A DNA stretch of 64,000 bases from the NCBI RefSeq assembly GCF_009914755.1, contig NC_060933.1; one strand, 5' to 3'. The translations under genes and the position numbers were made by a program. The stretch comes from the human T2T-CHM13v2.0 reference genome, Homo sapiens. Positions 5,719 to 13,444 of the stretch are shown here, piece after piece. Positions within the stretch are counted from its first letter, which is position 1. Each line of letters opens with the position of its first letter. The notes beneath the pieces were generated by a model, which saw only the letters and a list, made by a program, of their open reading frames with translations, was not told where the DNA came from and did no database searches.

Positions 5719-6149
5719 GGGAAAGTGTGAAATGTTTTGCTGGGAAAGGAAGATCATCAGGTAAGAGAACTGTAGCAAGGTTACCGTAGCAGCAGGACAG
5801 CAAATAGAACATGAGGTGCATTAGAGACGAGGAGACCAAAGCAGTTATTACTGGCAAGTTGACCCAAGTAACTGAAATCTGCAAAGCTTATGATTGACGG
5901 AGGAATTATAGAAAGTCAAAATACACACATGCACAATAAGACTTTCTGATTCTGTACCATAGGCTTCTTTTTTAATATTTTTATTTTGTAACATTATCTT
6001 AATAGCACATTATTAATAATATTTTGAATAATGAAAATACCCAGTACAAACATTTTTCCCTAAACTATTGCTTATCTGGTGATGCCACCCAAGGTCAAGG
6101 ACCAGGGTCACATTTCTGTTTTTATACTTCAGGTCAATAGGAGCAATAA

Positions 6150-6350
6150 CAATGGCTAACATTTACAGAAAATCTATGTTCCAAGTCTTATTTACATATA
6201 TAAATTAATTTAATCTTCATAACAGTCTATAAGGTAGGTCACTATTATCTGTTTTTAGAGACTAGGAAACTGTGACACAGAGAGGAAAAGTAAGTTACTC
6301 ACTATCGCACAGCATGAAGCTGTGGAATGAGAATTCCAACCCAGACACTC
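6150..6350 (+). mobile_element. MIR
   Basis: Core 'aggtaggtcactattatctgtttttagagactaggaaactgtgacacagagagg'. Confidence 0.7.
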
Positions 6351-7459
6351 TGCTTGCAGCCACTCCACCCCAATGTCTACCAGAAAGTGTGGTTCAGTAT
6401 TTTGAAAGAATGCTGGTGGATTCATCTTCATTTATATACCTCCACTGTGCCTCTTGTATGTAATTCTGAACATAAAATTAGAAAAAACCTTCACCTGAAA
6501 ACAGAGATATTCTCTCAGCAATAGCATAGGCATGTCATCATGCCCTTGAGCTAGCTAGTCATAAAAATTCTTACAGATCACACAGTAGGTTTTGTAGACA
6601 ATAATGACCAGCCATGGGCAGACACAGAACTCCCCAGCCCAGACTAGTAGGGTCAAGTCTGCAAGCACAACGGAAGCTCCTTCTTGCTGAGATAGGTGAC
6701 TGGAAACAAGACCACAGTTCCCACGCCCAGAGGCAGTTGCGACTCAAGTGTGTTTAGTCTCCTGGGCCTGGAGGAGAGTAATGGGCAGCCCGCTGGGCTG
6801 TAATGGCCATCTGCCCGCCTGCGGTTTCTGCCCTGATGCGCATGGTCCCTTCCTTCCTAGCCAGACCGTGTTCCAATCACCTAGTTCTAATCGGCCTTGC
6901 CCCAAGTGCATCAGATGCTGCTTCAAGTTTCAATTACACTGTATAAACCAGGTTTCTGGAGAATTCCAGCCAGACAGTGATCCGAGGCACTCACCCCGGA
7001 CCCTGCATATGGAATCTGACTCAGATCTATGTTGTATTCACAGCACCCGCCTAGTGATGGCAATTTTGTCCAACAGCACCTGCCTCCCCTCTCCGGCTCT
7101 TTGCTCTTGGGTAGTCTCCCTGACACCTGGCCTTTGTGTCTACCTCAGGAGCTCCCAGCAGCGCTGGTAACAGGCACCAAGCTTCTGAGTAAAGCCTTGG
7201 GCCATAAGTCATGTCATTCATTTTACTACTGGTGGAAGATAAAACACCAAAAATCAGCCAAAGAACTGTTCCTTGGAGAAGTGCCTCAACATTTGGAGGG
7301 GTGAGGTATACTCACAGGAAATTTTATTTTTATTAGGCTTCCCACAAAATATTAATGAAATACTCATAGTGATTCTCCATCTTCCATTTATATTAAAAAT
7401 AGTATATTTTAAATGTATCAATTTTGGCTGGGTGCGGTGGCTCACATCTGTGAGTCACA

Positions 7460-7700
7460 TCTGTGACTTCGTTACAATTAAAAACTTTTGCTCTGGGAAA
7501 GGAAATATTAAGAGAATGAAGAAACAAGCCACAGACAGGAAGAAAATATTTGTAAAACACCTGTCTTGCATCCAGACCATTAAAAACCACTTACAACTCA
7601 ACAATAAGAATTCAAGCCACCCAATTAGTAAATGGACAAAAGATCTAAAGAGGCTCCCATCAGAGATGGCATATAGAAGGCGGAAAGCTTATGAAAAGAT
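7460..7700 (+). mobile_element. Old L1 ORF2 fragment abutting the CpG island
   Basis: Peptide IKNFCSGK...RMKKQATDRKKIF...KWTKDLKR typical of the L1 ORF2 C-terminal region. Confidence 0.7.
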
Positions 7701-7912
7701 GTTCGCCCTCCCCGCGCTTTTCCCTCCCTGCGTCCCTCTCTCTCCCACACACCCTCCGCTGCAGCGAGAGTGGGAGCGGGTCAGGGGCGGTAGGCGGTGA
7801 CGGTGACTTGCTGTCTCTCGTGCGAGGCGTGGGATTTAAGCGCATTATAAGCCGTGGGTCCCGGAGAATCCCGAGAGGCTGCGCTTGGAGCCCAGACTGA
7901 CGCGCTTCTCTC

Positions 7913-8565
7913 ATGGTTCCGGGCCGCTGCCCTGCAGAGCCCACCTTACTCTTACTCTCCACAGGCCTGTTGGCCGCGGCGGGCCTTGGCTCCCCTGAGC
8001 CTGGTGGGCCTGCAAAGAGCTGCGTCCAGGAGCCGCCCCCAGGGAACAAGCTGCCAGCGGGCCTGGGGAGAACCGCCCGTCCGATGAGCTCGGCTGAGCG
8101 TGCACGCAGTGCCGAAATCAAGGACGCCTGGATGCTTTTCGTTGCAGAGTGACAAAGGTTCAACAACAGGAAGAGGATCAGGGGCCAAGACAAGAAGCTG
8201 AAGTTCGGCCTGCCAGGAACCCCGGGCCCCAGCATCCCACCCAAGGCGCTGCTGCAGGAGTTCCAGCTGCTGCTGAAAGGTGCGGTGCCGCAGGGCCAGA
8301 GTGCGGGATCCTGAGCCCTGCATGCCAGTCCTTGCGGGGGCCGATCGCTGTGAGCCTTACTCAGGTCCAGCCGCCTCCAGGGAGGACAATGTAGACGAGG
8401 TGCGGGGCGTGAGGGCGGTGCTGGCCGCACCCCTGGTCCTGAGGCCACGGGAGCCGCGCGAGGAGGCCGCCTTCCACTGACGCCTGCACCGGGACCGGTT
8501 GCTGCAGCGGTGCCAGCTGCAGGAGCTCCGCGTCTGCTGCTTCTCCGACGCCAGGGCGCCGCCAG
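7913..8565 (+). pseudogene. Processed pseudogene of erythroferrone (ERFE/FAM132B/CTRP15), 5' ~two-thirds of CDS
   Basis: Colinear peptides [68 protein letters not shown] match recalled ERFE ([77 protein letters not shown]); frameshifts and stops; no introns. Confidence 0.88.
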
Positions 8566-8894
8566 GATGACAGGTGCAGGAGACTGTGGCTGTGGGCAGA
8601 TGTGGTTTCCAGCCCCAGGTCCCCGCGGCCCCTGGCTTCCCAGCGCGCTGTCCTGTGAGCAAGAAGATGAAAAAAGCCACCCGATCAACAGGTCAGCTGC
8701 CCCGCCTGGCAGCCCAGCCAGACAAGGCAACCGAAGTTCATCCTCTCTGAGTTGACTTCGTGCGGGCAGCGGGCCGGCGCCCAGGATGCTGGGGAGCCCT
8801 GCGCGCCGGAGGCCGACAAGCCGTGGGGCTCAGAGGCGCCTCAGGGCGAGAAGGCACCCGCCTCCCAGCGCTTTCACCCCCTGGCCTGCCCGGC

Positions 8895-9745
8895 CCGCGT
8901 GGTGTCCCAGTGGCTGCGGCCACGCCAGGCATTCTGCCCCGCGGCGGCTGCACAGGGACGAGAACTGAGAACCCCTGCTCAACCCCATCCGGGGTGACTG
9001 CCAAATGCCTATGCCAGCGGCCCCGATCTCCCTCCGGTGGAGGAGTGGGGGGAGACACGGCCTGGGGGCCTCAGGCTGGGCGCGCTGGCGATCCCGAGGC
9101 CGACCAGGTCATGCACCTCCAGTCCGCCTGGGCACCCAAGCTGCAGCCGCCTTCTGTGTGCAGACAGCAGCCTCCAGGCAATCCCCGAGCCCGCCCGCAC
9201 TCCCCGCATCTCAAAACCGGGGCTAGAGGTCCCTGTAGCTGCGGCCAAGCCAGGCGGTCTGCCCTGCGGCGGCTGCACAGGGGCAGGAACCGGCCCTCAG
9301 ACCCAACCCCGGTGGCTGCAGAGGGCCACTGGCTAGAGGTCCCCAGCTCCAGCAGAGGAGGAGCTGGGCGGGGGCAGGGCCTGGCGGGCTCTCAGGCCAG
9401 GTGCACTCGCGATCTAGAGGCAGCCCAGGCCATTCTCCACCACCTGGGCGCCCAAGCTGCAGGCGCCCTCTACCTGCTGGCAACAGCTGCCTGGCCACTC
9501 CCAAGCTGGCTGGCGCTCCCAAGCCTCGCAGAACCGGGGCTAGATGTCGCCGTGACTGCGGCCAAGCCCGGCGGTCTGCCCGGCGGCGGCTGCACCGTGG
9601 CTGGAACCGACCCCCCAGTCCCATCCCCCATGGCTACGGAGGGCCCCTGTCAGCGGCCCCGATCTCTCTTTGGAGGAGGAGCGGGGCGGGAGTCACGGCC
9701 AGGAGGGCCCTCAGGCCGGAAGGGATGCACGTCTGCGATTCCGAG
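8895..9745 (+). repeat. Three diverged ~320-bp GC-rich tandem units
   Basis: Motif 'ctgcggcca(c/a)gcc(a/c)ggc...ctgccc.gcggcggctgcac' recurs at ~8914, ~9239, ~9556. Confidence 0.8.
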
Positions 9746-10043
9746 ACGTCCCGCGCGAGCCCAGGAGAACCCGCAAGCCAGCAGCGCCTGCGCCCGAGCT
9801 GCAGCAGCCCCCTGCAGGCCACGCGGGCTCGGGAGCGGTTTCCGGAGTCCGAGCTGGCGCTGAGCTGCAGGCGCGAGCCTAAAGGCTTAGCCGGGGCCCA
9901 CGCTGTCTGAGAGATCGGAGCGTTCAGCTACAGGCACGCGCTTAACGGCTTCGTGGAGCTCACTCGGTCTGAGAGGTCGGAGGCTGCGAGTGTCGCTGCT
10001 GAAGGCTGTGGTGGACCAGGCTGGATCGCGGATTCTGAGCTAC

Positions 10044-10140
10044 ATCGCGGGTTTGGTGGTGGATCTTGGATTTGGGGGTGGATCGCGGGTTTGGGGGTGG
10101 ATCTTGGATTTGGGGGTGGATCGCGGGTTGTGGGGGGGAT
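10044..10140 (+). repeat. 38-bp G-rich minisatellite (~2.5 copies) upstream of the ANKRD19P ATG
   Basis: 'atcgcgggtt' starts at 10044, 10082, 10120. Confidence 0.85.
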
Positions 10141-10217
10141 GGCGGATTTGGGGCTGGGTGGGGGTGGAAAGGCCACGAGGAGCCGCGGCGGCTCAGGAGC
10201 GGGTGGTGGGCGTCTGA

Positions 10218-10589
<372 letters not shown>

Positions 10590-13444
10590 TAGCACTTGGT
10601 GGATAATTTGATTTAACTCACAAAGTTAAGCATATACACGTTTAAAACATGGGGCCATATACACGATAGGGAGGTGCCTAATGAGAACTCATTCCCATGT
10701 CAAAAATACCATGAGCCATTTTCAGTAGGCGAAGAGTTCTCAAATTAAACCCTGTGTCAGTTTTAAATCCGAATCCACCTAGGTAGATAGGTTCTTTACT
10801 GGGGCTTCTTAGAGGGACACTTGGAAAGGGGACGTGGGTTCCTTGAATGAGAAGACTCATTTTTCTCAAAATGTGAGCTCTATGTTTATCAGATTTACAT
10901 AAACCAAATAAAAATATCAAGGTTTTATCATTTTTGCATGACACTGTCTATCTTACTATTGTGATGATATTTAAAAATGTTCATAATGGAGTGAAAAAAG
11001 ACTTGCTCCTCTAGATATCAAAATGTGCTATTAATTCTCACAATTAATTATTTACTAACAGCTGAAAACACAGATAAATAAATGCAACAGAATAGGAAAT
11101 CCAAAAACACTGAAATATATGTAAGATATATACATAGGGATTGATAATGGTAACATTTCAGATGAGTAGGAAAGGATGAGTTATTAATAACATGCCTGCT
11201 GTGTGAAGAAAACTAATGGAATTTTATGTCGCAAAAATGAGTTCCTGATGGAATTTAGACTGAAATTTTTACATATGCAAAATGAGAAAAGTACCAGAAG
11301 AAAATACAAAGACTTATATATACAGGTACATTTTATGTTAATAAAGGCCTTCCTAAGAATGACCTCGCAAGCAGGCATTCTGAAAGTTGATTTAGCAAAC
11401 TAAAAATTAAAATCCCCTGTGTATCAGAAAAAAATTAACAAAAGGTAACACACTTGAAAAATATTTACAATATATATTTTTACTAATATATAAAAATATA
11501 TATTCAGATGAAAAGTGTATCTTCATCCTACAGGGAAGTTATTCTTTATCATATATAATATGATATATATTACTGATTATATATATAACAAATTGTATAT
11601 ATTACTAATATAATATGTTATATGTATATCAGTTATATATATACAGATAAAAAGCACATCTTTATTTTACAGGGAATTCTTTCCAATCAAATCCACAAGA
11701 AAAGAACTCTAAAAGTGAGCAAAGTACTTTTTTGCAGATCCACAAGTTACTTATGTACATATGAAAAAATCCTTAGTGTTTCTCATAAGAGAATTTAAGT
11801 TAAAAGAGGAATGAGACTGTGTTCTATCCACAGTGTTTGTGAGAATGAAGAGCAGTGGTACTTACACTGCTGCTTGACGTTTAAGTTGCTGATGACTTTT
11901 CAAGTAGATAATTTGGAGATAATTACCACATTTTAAAAATGCATATGCCCTTTACCCACCAATTCCGTTGTATTAAAATACCTTCAGAAAATAGAGATAC
12001 ATGCACTTTGTTTTTCTCAGCATTTATGTTAACAAGAACCCATAGAATGGATATGTGGCCATTGAAGGTGGCAATAGGTGGAGAAGTATGTTGGTGTGTG
12101 AGGATGTATTGTTATAGCCAGTGAGGAAAAAAAATCAATTTGTTTGCACATACACACAAACATACTGTGGTCTTGTGTTAGCCAAAACTATGTACAAAAG
12201 AGCATAAAATTAGTAACTTCTGAGCATTTGTATTTTCAAGTCTTTTGTTCTTTTTTCTTACCTTTGATTTCTGAAGTGAGCATTTCTAAAACTTCTAGTA
12301 AAAATTTATTATTAATGGAATAATTTTTGGGAAGAGAGAAATATGAATCTTGTACAGATAAAAATAATTTCTCACTTTTTTTATCATTATTATTGAGGGT
12401 TGTTATCTCGTTTGAACTTTTAGCTTCTTCAGAAGTAAAAAGGGAATCTTTTTACCTGTGCTTGCAGATTTTATTATGTACATATTATGTATATATGTTT
12501 TTCTTATGTATAGATTCATTACATATATGCAATGATAGATTAATCATTTCATTATAGTTGTAGTCTTATAAAAATAACAAATAGCAAATAGTATTACTAT
12601 CACAAAAATACTGGTTTATAAAAGTTGTATTTAAAAATATTGAGCTCCCCAACTGTATTCTATCAATCCATTTATTCATCAAACATAACCTGAATACCTG
12701 TTATGTAGCAAACATTTTACCTGTTATGTAGCAAACATTTTGCACTATCTCTCAGGACCCTTCCATACTTAAAAACTTTGTTTACCTGTTCTGCCTGAGC
12801 AAGATGAGAGATTTAAAATGGGAATAGTAGGACTTAATCTCCTTGAAGCTTTTCCTCCCACCTTTCAAGCAAAAGCATTTCTGAAGGTAGAAAACAGTAA
12901 GAGATAACCTTTAACTGCCCTTTTGAAAATCTGTCAGTCTTAAATACTAATATGAATAATTGGAAAGTCTGATTTGCATATATTCTGTAAATCTAAGTGT
13001 TGACTAAAATGAGCCATACCTGTTCATCTCAATCATTAGTTTCCTTTAGCTTCATATTTTTAAAAATCAAAGAAGTAATTTGTTTAAAAAATATGTTGTT
13101 ATTTCAGTGCTCTTTCCCCATGGTACTTTTAGGAATTAAAATGTATTTAAGTGTCAATTAGATGCCTAGAACTGCCCTAGACCTGCTGTCTATACCGTAT
13201 TTGCTTAATGTAAGGCCTCATGGATTGTGTGATACCCTACTGTTTTCTATATTAATAAGATGATTTTTTAAACGCTACCAATTGTAGTTATAAAAAATTA
13301 TGAATTATAAATGCCATTCCAATATCAGATATACTAAAATGTGACCTAATCTTTAAATCATCCTGCAAAATGGCAATAATTGTATCATTTTACTTAATTA
13401 AAATGTTTTTGTTAAGTAGTAGTAATAGTAATAATTGTAACATC

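What the first reader, a model, noticed from the sequence alone, without database searches (positions are those of the whole stretch)
7913..8565. Cryptic erythroferrone (ERFE) retrocopy inside the ANKRD19P CpG island
Seen: frame-shifted translation gives signal-peptide-like [85 protein letters not shown]...EAAFH*RLHRD...LQELRVCCFSDA in order with no introns. Known: this is the domain order of ERFE (multi-exon, C1q/TNF family, suppresses hepcidin), matched from memory. The Gly-X-Y stretch is shortened. Similarity stops near the start of the C1q domain with no poly-A, which is odd because retrocopies are usually 5'-truncated. Inference: an old retrocopy, later cut at its 3' end, now forms part of the promoter island and may be carried by other ANKRD18-family duplicons. 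Whether it is already annotated is unknown to me.
Basis: partly seen in the sequence, partly recalled or inferred. Interest (0 to 1): 0.8.

Follow-up and report, generated by a model that had tools for sequence, protein, structure and literature searches.

The report
Decayed ERFE–CDT1 chimeric processed pseudogene
The stretch is a real but long-dead intronless copy of the front half of the erythroferrone gene, and it lacks a tail because it is fused directly to an intronless fragment of the replication gene CDT1; the pair is an old primate chimeric pseudogene that now forms the upstream end of the ANKRD19P CpG island.

Summary
Window 7708-8560 (+) aligns as one block to the spliced ERFE exons from chr2. 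It runs from 199 nt upstream of the parental ATG to 18 nt into exon 5 and crosses four exon junctions. Identity is 78% over 836 aligned columns: 483 bits, against at most 39.7 bits in 100 shuffles.

The copy was not simply cut at its 3' end. At about 8541-8568 it abuts an intronless CDT1 fragment (to 8898), which runs from the end of exon 1 into exon 4 and crosses three junctions (E 2e-44). There is no poly-A tail and no target-site duplication.

At about 8901 the chimera meets a 318-bp tandem array that begins the ANKRD18/20-family upstream duplicon. Only one other locus, chr9:38.64 Mb, carries the chimera; 0 of 18 other family loci do.

Likelihood placement on ortholog trees puts both pieces on the stem leading to monkeys and apes. 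A gelada gene model spans the junction.

The copy is dead as a gene: it has frameshifts, a stop codon and a 27-nt collagen deletion. It keeps CpG-island composition (observed/expected 0.69) and is antisense exon sequence of lncRNA LOC101929748. It is a new member of a known kind and of modest interest.

The parts
7243..7703 (+). Old LINE-1 ORF2 C-terminal fragment. It is flanking DNA and probably the target site.
   Evidence: The open frame 7243-7800 reads like L1 ORF2. The assignment to an old L1M-type family is from recall, not from a repeat library. It abuts the ERFE homology within about 5 nt. The same junction is present in the chr9:38.64 Mb copy.
7708..7912 (+). Copy of the ERFE 5' flank and 5'UTR (parental -199 to -1 relative to the ATG), including a TTATAAG element at 7845-7851.
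   Evidence: Alignments. TTATAAG is identical in the parent, the window and the 9p13 copy. That most of this stretch lies upstream of the canonical ERFE start site rests on a recalled gene span plus the poly-A signal found.
7913..8085 (+). ERFE exon 1 coding part (signal peptide and N-terminal region), decayed.
   Evidence: frameshifting indels at 7934, 7946 and 8053, and in-frame deletions. The exon 1/2 junction lies at about 8085.
8086..8203 (+). ERFE exon 2 equivalent.
   Evidence: The junction with exon 3 is clean at 8203|8204.
8204..8279 (+). ERFE exon 3 equivalent (collagen-like run), with a 27-nt in-frame deletion.
   Evidence: deletion after 8215. This block is 91% identical to the parent.
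8280..8543 (+). ERFE exon 4 equivalent, with a TGA at 8478-8480.
   Evidence: The stop is seen. The 9p13 copy has Cys at that codon.
8544..8560 (+). First ~18 nt of ERFE exon 5, where ERFE similarity ends.
   Evidence: Nothing from ERFE exons 5-8 occurs anywhere else in the 64-kb window.
8541..8568 (+). ERFE|CDT1 junction zone. It is not at an exon border of either parent.
   Evidence: Both parents carry GACGC near here, so microhomology is possible, but it cannot be resolved at about 25-30% divergence.
8568..8898 (+). Intronless CDT1 fragment: end of exon 1 (to 8604), exon 2 (8605-8726), exon 3 (8727-8843) and the first ~55 nt of exon 4 (8844-8898).
   Evidence: One alignment block against the virtual CDT1 e1-e4 cDNA, E 2e-44. 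Identity is 74.4% over 355 aligned columns, K2P 0.315. Score is 163 bits against at most 29.7 in 100 shuffles. The parent is identified as CDT1: 100% identity to PDB 2wvr_C residues 164-228.
8899..9850 (+). Breakpoint at ~8899-8903, followed by three ~318-bp tandem units that begin the ANKRD18/20-family upstream duplicon.
   Evidence: In six other family loci that were examined, the array runs 160-245 nt further upstream. ANKRD18B/C/D-like loci also share other upstream DNA that is absent from the window.
7700..10600 (.). CpG island containing the chimera, the tandem array and ANKRD19P exon 1.
   Evidence: GC is 68% and CpG observed/expected is 0.66, with 214 CpGs. The ERFE piece alone has observed/expected 0.69, with 65 CpGs.
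5950..8652 (-). Annotated single-exon lncRNA LOC101929748. It starts inside the CDT1 piece and reads antisense through the ERFE piece and the L1 fragment.
   Evidence: Coordinates come from the hub annotation given with the finding. An AATAAA lies about 30 nt before its 3' end on the minus strand.

Best explanation
Window 7708-8898 is a bipartite chimeric processed pseudogene. A cDNA copy of the 5' part of an ERFE transcript (about 200 nt upstream of the ATG, exons 1-4 and 18 nt of exon 5) is joined head-to-tail, on the same strand, to a cDNA copy of an internal part of CDT1 mRNA (end of exon 1 to early exon 4).

Inference 1: the two pieces arrived in one RNA-mediated event in the common ancestor of monkeys and apes. 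The most likely mechanism is a LINE-1 reverse transcriptase that started on CDT1 mRNA, jumped to an ERFE transcript and ran to that transcript's 5' end. That ERFE transcript had started upstream of the usual start site.

Inference 2: the insertion went into an old L1 element.

Inference 3: the 3' part of the CDT1 copy, with its poly-A tail, was lost when the 5' edge of an ANKRD18-type duplicon was joined at ~8901.

The composite was then duplicated, giving the ANKRD19P copy and the chr9:38.64 Mb copy.

The chimera encodes nothing. It survives as unmethylated-looking, CpG-rich DNA that forms the upstream third of the ANKRD19P CpG island. It supplies the start site and much of the body, in antisense, of lncRNA LOC101929748.

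The confidence given (0.65) is for the whole chain. That the stretch is an ERFE-CDT1 chimeric processed pseudogene I hold at about 0.95. That it arose in a single event I hold at about 0.8. That the mechanism was template switching and not filler capture I hold at about 0.55.
For: Shown:
- Four ERFE junctions and three CDT1 junctions are crossed without introns.
- Parent identities are confirmed by named hits.
- Both alignments score far above shuffles.
- The two pieces abut within about 25 nt, on the same strand, and not at exon borders.
- Neither the ERFE 3' exons nor CDT1 exons 4-10 occur elsewhere in the window or elsewhere in the genome.
- Divergence from the parents is similar: K2P 0.26 for ERFE and 0.32 for CDT1.
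- Likelihood placement on fixed species trees. For ERFE the best branches are the catarrhine stem and the anthropoid stem (difference 0.18 lnL); summed RELL support within anthropoids is 0.84 and outside primates 0.04. For CDT1 the best branch is the anthropoid stem, with RELL support 0.63. Summed over both pieces, the anthropoid stem beats every other shared branch by about 5.9 lnL or more.
- A gelada (Old World monkey) gene model aligns across the junction, at window 8338-8685.
- Both human copies share the L1|ERFE junction, the ERFE|CDT1 junction and about nine frame breaks. The chimera was therefore already dead before the duplication.
- 0 of 18 other ANKRD18/20 loci carry it, and their DNA upstream of the 8901-equivalent point is different.
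- CpG observed/expected is 0.69 in the ERFE piece.

Mechanism precedent: directly fused, same-orientation chimeras formed by template switching are described in PMC2104539 (passages read). Fusions of mRNA 5' exons to LINE-1 are described in bioRxiv 10.1101/2025.02.02.635956 (passages read).
Against: - There is no poly-A tail and no target-site duplication. The longest word shared by the two flanks is 6 nt, a length reached in 621 of 1000 shuffles. The hallmarks of LINE-1 integration are therefore absent, and an extra truncation event has to be assumed.
- The CDT1 piece is truncated at both ends.
- The ERFE piece is not a full-length RNA copy, whereas the 5' part of classical template-switch chimeras is full-length (PMC2104539).
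- The trees use short, X-riddled pseudo-translations. The AU test does not reject several deeper placements: for ERFE, the Glires, Euarchontoglires and Primatomorpha stems have p of about 0.10-0.11; for CDT1, most deeper stems have p of 0.10-0.27.
- ERFE alone slightly prefers the catarrhine stem.
- The claim that the copy carries promoter DNA depends on a recalled ERFE gene span.
Confidence: 0.65

Rival explanations
1. The ERFE and CDT1 cDNA fragments were captured as filler at a double-strand break or at the junction formed when the ANKRD18-type duplicon was pasted next to the L1 element. This would be end-joining with templated insertions, not LINE-1 target-primed integration.
For: Four features need no extra step under this model: no poly-A, no target-site duplication, a CDT1 piece cut at both ends inside exons, and direct abutments L1|ERFE|CDT1|array. 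The window's ANKRD part is 79.9% identical to the ANKRD18B-like locus. That is about as diverged as the chimera is from its parents, so similar ages are not excluded.
Against: The ANKRD part is 85-89% identical to the other family loci examined, which is less diverged than the chimera is from its parents (K2P 0.26-0.32). This suggests the chimera is older than the junction, unless gene conversion has homogenised the family. The ERFE piece reaches a plausible RNA 5' end, as expected if a reverse transcriptase ran off its template. Known cases of templated insertion are recalled, not read here.
Confidence: 0.2
2. Two independent retrocopies, one of ERFE and one of CDT1, landed next to or inside each other. 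Later deletions removed the ERFE 3' half, the CDT1 5' end and the CDT1 3' half.
For: Nested and adjacent retro-insertions are common. ERFE alone is placed marginally better on the catarrhine stem and CDT1 on the anthropoid stem.
Against: This needs at least three or four events to produce a seamless same-strand junction with no poly-A, no leftover intervening DNA, and no remnant of either missing part in the window or the genome. The placement difference for ERFE is only 0.18 lnL.
Confidence: 0.1
3. One reading: a plain ERFE retrocopy whose 3' half was later cut off by an unrelated rearrangement, with non-genic DNA following it.
For: The ERFE part is intronless and lacks its 3' end.
Against: The DNA that follows is a spliced CDT1 fragment at E 2e-44, not anonymous sequence. 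The true rearrangement edge is about 340 nt further on, at ~8901.
Confidence: 0.03
4. The chimera is, or was, a functional element, not passive DNA. In this reading the carried ERFE core promoter and the CpG-rich cDNA seeded the bidirectional promoter island now used by ANKRD19P/ANKRD18A and their antisense lncRNAs.
For: CpG observed/expected is still 0.69 after about 22% substitution; 46 of 123 parental CpGs are retained. The TTATAAG element is conserved in both copies. The lncRNA start site at 8652 and a RefSeq enhancer at 8265-9155 lie inside the chimera (hub annotation).
Against: All other ANKRD18/20 copies lack the chimera, yet they share the region from 8901 to exon 1. The ANKRD promoter therefore does not depend on it. 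No transcript is annotated from the ERFE start-site equivalent. CpG retention could simply reflect spreading of the neighbouring island.
Confidence: 0.15

Closest known systems
Ordinary LINE-1-mediated processed pseudogenes (retrocopies)
   Same: It is an intronless copy of a multi-exon gene on another chromosome, riddled with frameshifts and a stop.
   Different: It has no poly-A tail and no target-site duplication. It is complete at the 5' end, even extending upstream of the likely start site, and truncated at the 3' end, which is the reverse of the usual pattern. It is fused to a second gene's cDNA.
Template-switch chimeric retrogenes (Buzdin/Gogvadze type; features listed in PMC2104539, passages read)
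   Same: Two different cellular transcripts are directly fused in the same orientation. The 3' partner is truncated at its 5' end at an apparently random internal site.
   Different: Both partners are mRNAs. The 5' partner is not a full-length RNA copy, because it stops in exon 5. The 3' partner has also lost its 3' end. No flanking direct repeats were found.
mRNA 5'-exon/LINE-1 chimeric insertions (bioRxiv 10.1101/2025.02.02.635956, abstract and passages read)
   Same: The first exons of a cellular gene are fused upstream of another retrotranscribed sequence. The first-exon region is rich in regulatory sequence.
   Different: The downstream partner here is CDT1 mRNA, not LINE-1. The junction is inside exons, not at splice sites, so trans-splicing is unlikely.
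Retrocopies that carry parental promoter sequence because the source transcript began upstream (recalled from the literature, not read here)
   Same: The copy includes about 200 nt upstream of the ATG, with the parent's TTATAAG element.
   Different: No sense-strand transcript from that element is annotated. The position of the canonical ERFE start site is inferred from recall, not shown.

Membership tests
Processed pseudogene (retrocopy) of ERFE | Significant similarity to the parent's mature mRNA, with the parent identified | tested here: met
   E 4e-139 and 483 bits, against at most 39.7 bits in 100 shuffles. The parent is named erythroferrone by orthologs.
Processed pseudogene (retrocopy) of ERFE | Parental introns absent across exon junctions | tested here: met
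   Four junctions are crossed. Parental introns of about 2.4, 1.0, 0.9 and 0.08 kb are missing.
Processed pseudogene (retrocopy) of ERFE | 3' poly-A tail | tested here: not met
   The similarity ends 18 nt into exon 5. The only A6 run between 8500 and 9000, at 8670, lies inside CDT1-derived sequence.
Processed pseudogene (retrocopy) of ERFE | Flanking target-site duplication | tested here: inconclusive
   The longest word shared between 7661-7715 and 8886-8945 is 6 nt, a length reached in 621 of 1000 shuffles. The original 3' end is probably lost, so absence is uninformative.
Processed pseudogene (retrocopy) of ERFE | Loss of coding capacity (pseudogene, not retrogene) | tested here: met
   There are multiple frameshifting indels in the coding part, a TGA at 8478-8480 and a 27-nt deletion. 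About nine frame breaks are shared with the 9p13 copy.
Template-switch chimeric retrogene | Copies of two different transcripts directly joined in the same orientation | tested here: met
   ERFE runs to ~8560 and CDT1 starts at ~8568 or a few nt earlier, both on the + strand.
Template-switch chimeric retrogene | 5' part is a full-length copy of a cellular RNA | tested here: not met
   The ERFE part is complete at its 5' end but stops in exon 5 of 8.
Template-switch chimeric retrogene | 3' part is a 5'-truncated copy ending in the RNA's 3' end and poly-A | tested here: not met
   CDT1 is 5'-truncated inside exon 1, which fits. It also ends inside exon 4, at 8898, with no poly-A. This could be secondary loss at the 8901 breakpoint.
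Template-switch chimeric retrogene | Flanked by short direct repeats | tested here: inconclusive
   None were found, but the 3' flank is not the original one.
CpG island | GC above about 55%, CpG observed/expected above 0.6, length above 500 bp | tested here: met
   For 7700-10500, GC is 68.2% and observed/expected is 0.66. For the ERFE piece, GC is 66.7% and observed/expected is 0.69.

The most novel reading that the evidence does not exclude
The ERFE-CDT1 cDNA mosaic is not an ordinary LINE-1 insertion. It is RNA-templated filler captured at the junction where an ANKRD18-type segmental duplication was pasted into 9q22. The captured ERFE core promoter and CpG-rich cDNA then became a working part of the bidirectional promoter that fires LOC101929748 and, at 9p13, the lncRNA opposite ANKRD18A. 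On this reading, pieces of a hormone gene and a replication gene were recruited as regulatory DNA for a primate-specific gene family.
Probability: 0.12. Interest if true: 0.55.

Novelty: new member of a known kind. Interest (0 to 1): 0.3.

Why it matters
Practical points:
- Reads, probes or guide RNAs designed against ERFE exons 1-4 or against the CDT1 N-terminal exons have weak off-target homologs at 9q22.31 and 9p13.1.
- Gene predictors already mis-call the GC-rich antisense frame as a protein. One example is a bonobo model named 'TFIID subunit 4-like'.

Biological points:
- It is a clean example of a two-gene chimeric processed pseudogene that is complete at the 5' end and seems to carry its parent's TATA-containing core promoter.
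- It marks the exact 5' breakpoint (~8901) that separates the ANKRD19P/ANKRD18A lineage from the rest of the ANKRD18/20 family, so it is a useful cladistic marker for the history of that duplicon.

It has no bearing on erythroferrone function or iron regulation.

Tried and rejected
- PDB sequence search with ERFE exon 4: no hit at E up to 1.
- Full-text search for the peptide DAWMLFV: 0 papers.
- Pfam on baboon erythroferrone: no family at E <= 0.001, so the C1q-domain boundary could not be placed with Pfam.
- The bacterial-type promoter and terminator scan on 7700-7900 is not applicable to a human promoter and found nothing.
- The mouse Erfe promoter paper (PMC10772350, passages read) gave no human start-site position.
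- I looked for the missing halves, ERFE exons 5-8 and CDT1 exons 4-10, in the window and in the whole genome. Only the parental loci matched, apart from weak intronic-repeat hits and one 72% match to ERFE exon 7 on chr1.
- I looked in the window for the upstream DNA that other ANKRD18 loci carry before the 8901-equivalent point. Only the tandem-array units matched, so a simple insertion into an ANKRD18 upstream region was rejected.
- Trans-splicing at the ERFE|CDT1 junction was considered and rejected, because the junction is inside exons and about 24 nt of CDT1 exon 1 sequence precede the only acceptor-like site.
- CDT1 similarity beyond 8898 (tblastx to ~8930) was rejected as spurious, because that stretch is homologous to the start of tandem units 2 and 3.

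Full report
**Observation**

The start codon is at 7913-7915.

A search of the window's own genome with 7700-8700 found four things:
- the window itself;
- a paralog at chr9:38,645,986-38,646,891 on the minus strand (86-91% identity);
- two short matches about 1 kb apart on chr2 at 238.65 Mb;
- one match on chr16 at 94.875 Mb.

**The parent is ERFE and the copy is intronless**

I fetched 20 kb of chr2. BLASTN gave four colinear blocks. They are contiguous in the window but separated by about 2.4, 1.05 and 0.9 kb on chr2.

GT-AG sites and open frames define eight exons and a 354-residue product. The exon 4 translation is 98% identical to proteins named erythroferrone in chimpanzee, and it matches named orthologs across mammals.

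The virtual spliced cDNA aligns to window 7708-8560 as one block. BLAST gives E 4e-139 and 70.8% identity over 921 columns with gaps. A global alignment gives 78.1% identity over 836 aligned columns, K2P 0.261. In 100 dinucleotide shuffles the best score was 39.7 bits, against 483 bits for the real sequence.

Exon junctions map as follows:
- e1/e2 at about 8085, blurred by small deletions;
- e2/e3 at 8203|8204;
- e3/e4 at 8279|8280;
- e4/e5 at 8543|8544.

The last junction removes a 75-nt intron, and 18 nt of exon 5 follow it.

**The copy is dead**

The coding part has about ten frameshifting indels, a TGA at 8478-8480 and a 27-nt in-frame loss in the Gly-X-Y run.

**Its 5' end is unusual**

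Homology runs 205 nt upstream of the ATG (parental -199). It includes a TTATAAG element at 7845-7851 that is identical in the parent and in the 9p13 copy.

The ERFE poly-A signal lies at chr2 locus coordinate 14611. Combined with my recalled gene span of about 9.93 kb, this puts the canonical start site about 45 nt upstream of the ATG, just downstream of that TATA-like element. If so, the copy carries about 150 nt of core promoter, and its source transcript began upstream. This step rests on recall and is flagged as such.

Immediately upstream (7243-7703) is a LINE-1 ORF2 fragment on the same strand. The L1|ERFE junction is shared with the 9p13 copy.

**Why there is no ERFE 3' end: a CDT1 fragment follows**

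The chr16 match led to a second set of colinear blocks. I fetched 9 kb of chr16 and defined exons 1-4 of the gene by GT-AG sites and reading frames. Its exon 4 translation is 100% identical to human DNA replication factor CDT1 in PDB 2wvr and 8s0e, residues 164-228. It also matches named CDT1 orthologs.

The virtual CDT1 e1-e4 cDNA aligns as one block to window ~8568-8898 with E 2e-44. Identity is 74.4% over 355 aligned columns, K2P 0.315. The score is 163 bits, against at most 29.7 bits in 100 shuffles. Junctions lie at 8604|8605, 8726|8727 and 8843|8844.

The ERFE|CDT1 transition lies within 8541-8568, inside exons of both parents. There is no poly-A run.

Apart from Alu matches, nothing else from either gene occurs in the 64-kb window. 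The missing halves occur nowhere else in the genome.

**The 3' boundary of the chimera**

From about 8903 the sequence is a 318-bp unit repeated three times. A genome search with 8560-10500 gave 69 matches, with 40 of 88 candidates scored. Only the chr9:38.64 Mb locus matches from query position 1. Nearly all the other primary matches begin at 8901-8902. The exceptions are the ANKRD18B-like locus, which begins at 9064, and one chr9 locus, which begins at 8928.

In six other loci that I examined, the tandem array continues 160-245 nt further upstream. Three ANKRD18B/C/D-like loci share 332 to 1229 nt of other upstream DNA that is absent from the window.

None of the 18 other loci fetched has ERFE or CDT1 similarity.

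So ~8901 is a breakpoint specific to the ANKRD19P and chr9:38.64 Mb lineage. The paralog shares the whole mosaic: 88% identity over 7469-8183 and 91% over 8269-13000. It lacks 8184-8268 and has a 3.8-kb insertion in the L1 part.

**Age**

I made pseudo-translations of both human copies, with X at every break. I then placed them on fixed species trees.

For ERFE, with 30 orthologs:
- The best branches are the catarrhine stem and the anthropoid stem, differing by 0.18 lnL.
- RELL support summed within anthropoids is 0.84, and outside primates 0.04.
- The AU test rejects the lemur, loris, Laurasiatheria and Boreoeutheria stems.

For CDT1, with 32 orthologs:
- The anthropoid stem is best, with RELL support 0.63. 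The next best is the strepsirrhine stem, at +3.07 lnL.
- Placements inside hominoids or Old World monkeys are rejected.

Single characters agree with this:
- the primate-specific F in KLKFGLPG is present;
- the pre-anthropoid A in LPAG and the pre-catarrhine H in AAFH are present;
- the anthropoid-type loss of K before DAGE in CDT1 is present;
- several pre-anthropoid CDT1 residues are present.

Summed over both pieces, the anthropoid stem wins by about 5.9 lnL or more. This is consistent with one event.

An independent check: a gelada gene model (LOC112608462) aligns to the antisense frame over window 8338-8685, across the junction. The chimera therefore exists in an Old World monkey.

About nine frame breaks are shared by the two human copies. 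The chimera was already a pseudogene before the duplication.

Several deeper placements are not statistically excluded, and no non-human DNA could be examined.

**Present state**

Window 7700-10600 is a CpG island: GC 68%, observed/expected 0.66. The ERFE piece has observed/expected 0.69, and 46 of 123 parental CpGs are retained. That is more than a methylated pseudogene of this divergence would be expected to keep.

According to the supplied annotation:
- lncRNA LOC101929748 starts at 8652, inside the CDT1 piece, and reads antisense through ERFE and L1 to 5950, where a poly-A signal sits;
- a RefSeq enhancer at 8265-9155 overlaps both pieces;
- ANKRD19P starts at 10176.

All other ANKRD18/20 copies keep the region from 8901 to exon 1 without the chimera. 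The ANKRD promoter therefore does not need it.

**Mechanism**

I commit to a single RNA-mediated chimeric event.

The most likely route is a LINE-1 reverse transcriptase switching templates from CDT1 mRNA to an ERFE transcript. That explains a partner that is complete at the 5' end but truncated at the 3' end. Loss of the CDT1 3' end at the ~8901 breakpoint would have followed.

The main rival is capture of both cDNA fragments as filler at a break or duplication junction. That route explains the lack of poly-A and target-site duplication without an extra step.

The defining features of classical template-switch chimeras (PMC2104539, passages read) are only partly met. Two independent insertions need several more events.

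**Literature**

No paper in the searched library contains 'ERFE retrocopy', 'ERFE pseudogene', 'FAM132B pseudogene' or 'CDT1 pseudogene'. The nine papers that hold both 'erythroferrone' and 'pseudogene' were seen as a listing only, and none has either term in its title or abstract. Three papers mention FAM201A together with ANKRD18A, also seen as a listing only. That the 9p13 antisense lncRNA is FAM201A is my recall.

**Verdict**

This is a real and correctly spotted ERFE retrocopy. Its odd truncation is explained by fusion to a CDT1 cDNA fragment. It is a new member of a known kind, and of modest interest.

Noticed in passing
window 8903-9850: A ~318-bp unit is repeated three times in tandem upstream of ANKRD19P. 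The same array is present in at least 40 scored loci genome-wide, on pericentromeric and acrocentric chromosomes as well as chr9 and chr3. Other copies have up to about 245 nt more array upstream. Tandem Repeats Finder did not report it at the default settings.
   Followed up: partly
window 10022-10157: A 19/38-bp G-rich tandem repeat (about 7 and 3 copies) lies immediately upstream of the annotated ANKRD19P start at 10176.
   Followed up: no
window 7663-8829 (-): A 389-residue frame is open from stop to stop, antisense to the chimera. A bonobo gene model 97% identical to it is named 'transcription initiation factor TFIID subunit 4-like', and a gelada model covers part of it. It is most likely a GC-rich frame free of stops by chance, and the name looks spurious.
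   Followed up: partly
L009 (chr9:38641001-38651000), minus strand: The 9p13 paralog of the chimera lacks the equivalent of window 8184-8268 (the end of ERFE exon 2 and most of exon 3). It also has an insertion of about 3.8 kb inside the L1 fragment, between the equivalents of window 7449 and 7469.
   Followed up: partly
L037 (chr1:671325-671422, minus strand): There is a 72% match to ERFE exon 7 (C-terminal globular domain). It is probably a paralogous C1q/TNF-family gene, adipolin/FAM132A by recall.
   Followed up: no
P0001: A 377-residue database protein from an unnamed source is 100% identical to the ERFE exon 4 translation, but otherwise reads through intron 3 and into intron 4. It is an unspliced conceptual translation, not a real isoform.
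   Followed up: no
window 10230-10435: ANKRD19P exon 1 still has an intact ATG and an open reading frame through the end of the exon, although the gene is annotated as a transcribed pseudogene.
   Followed up: no
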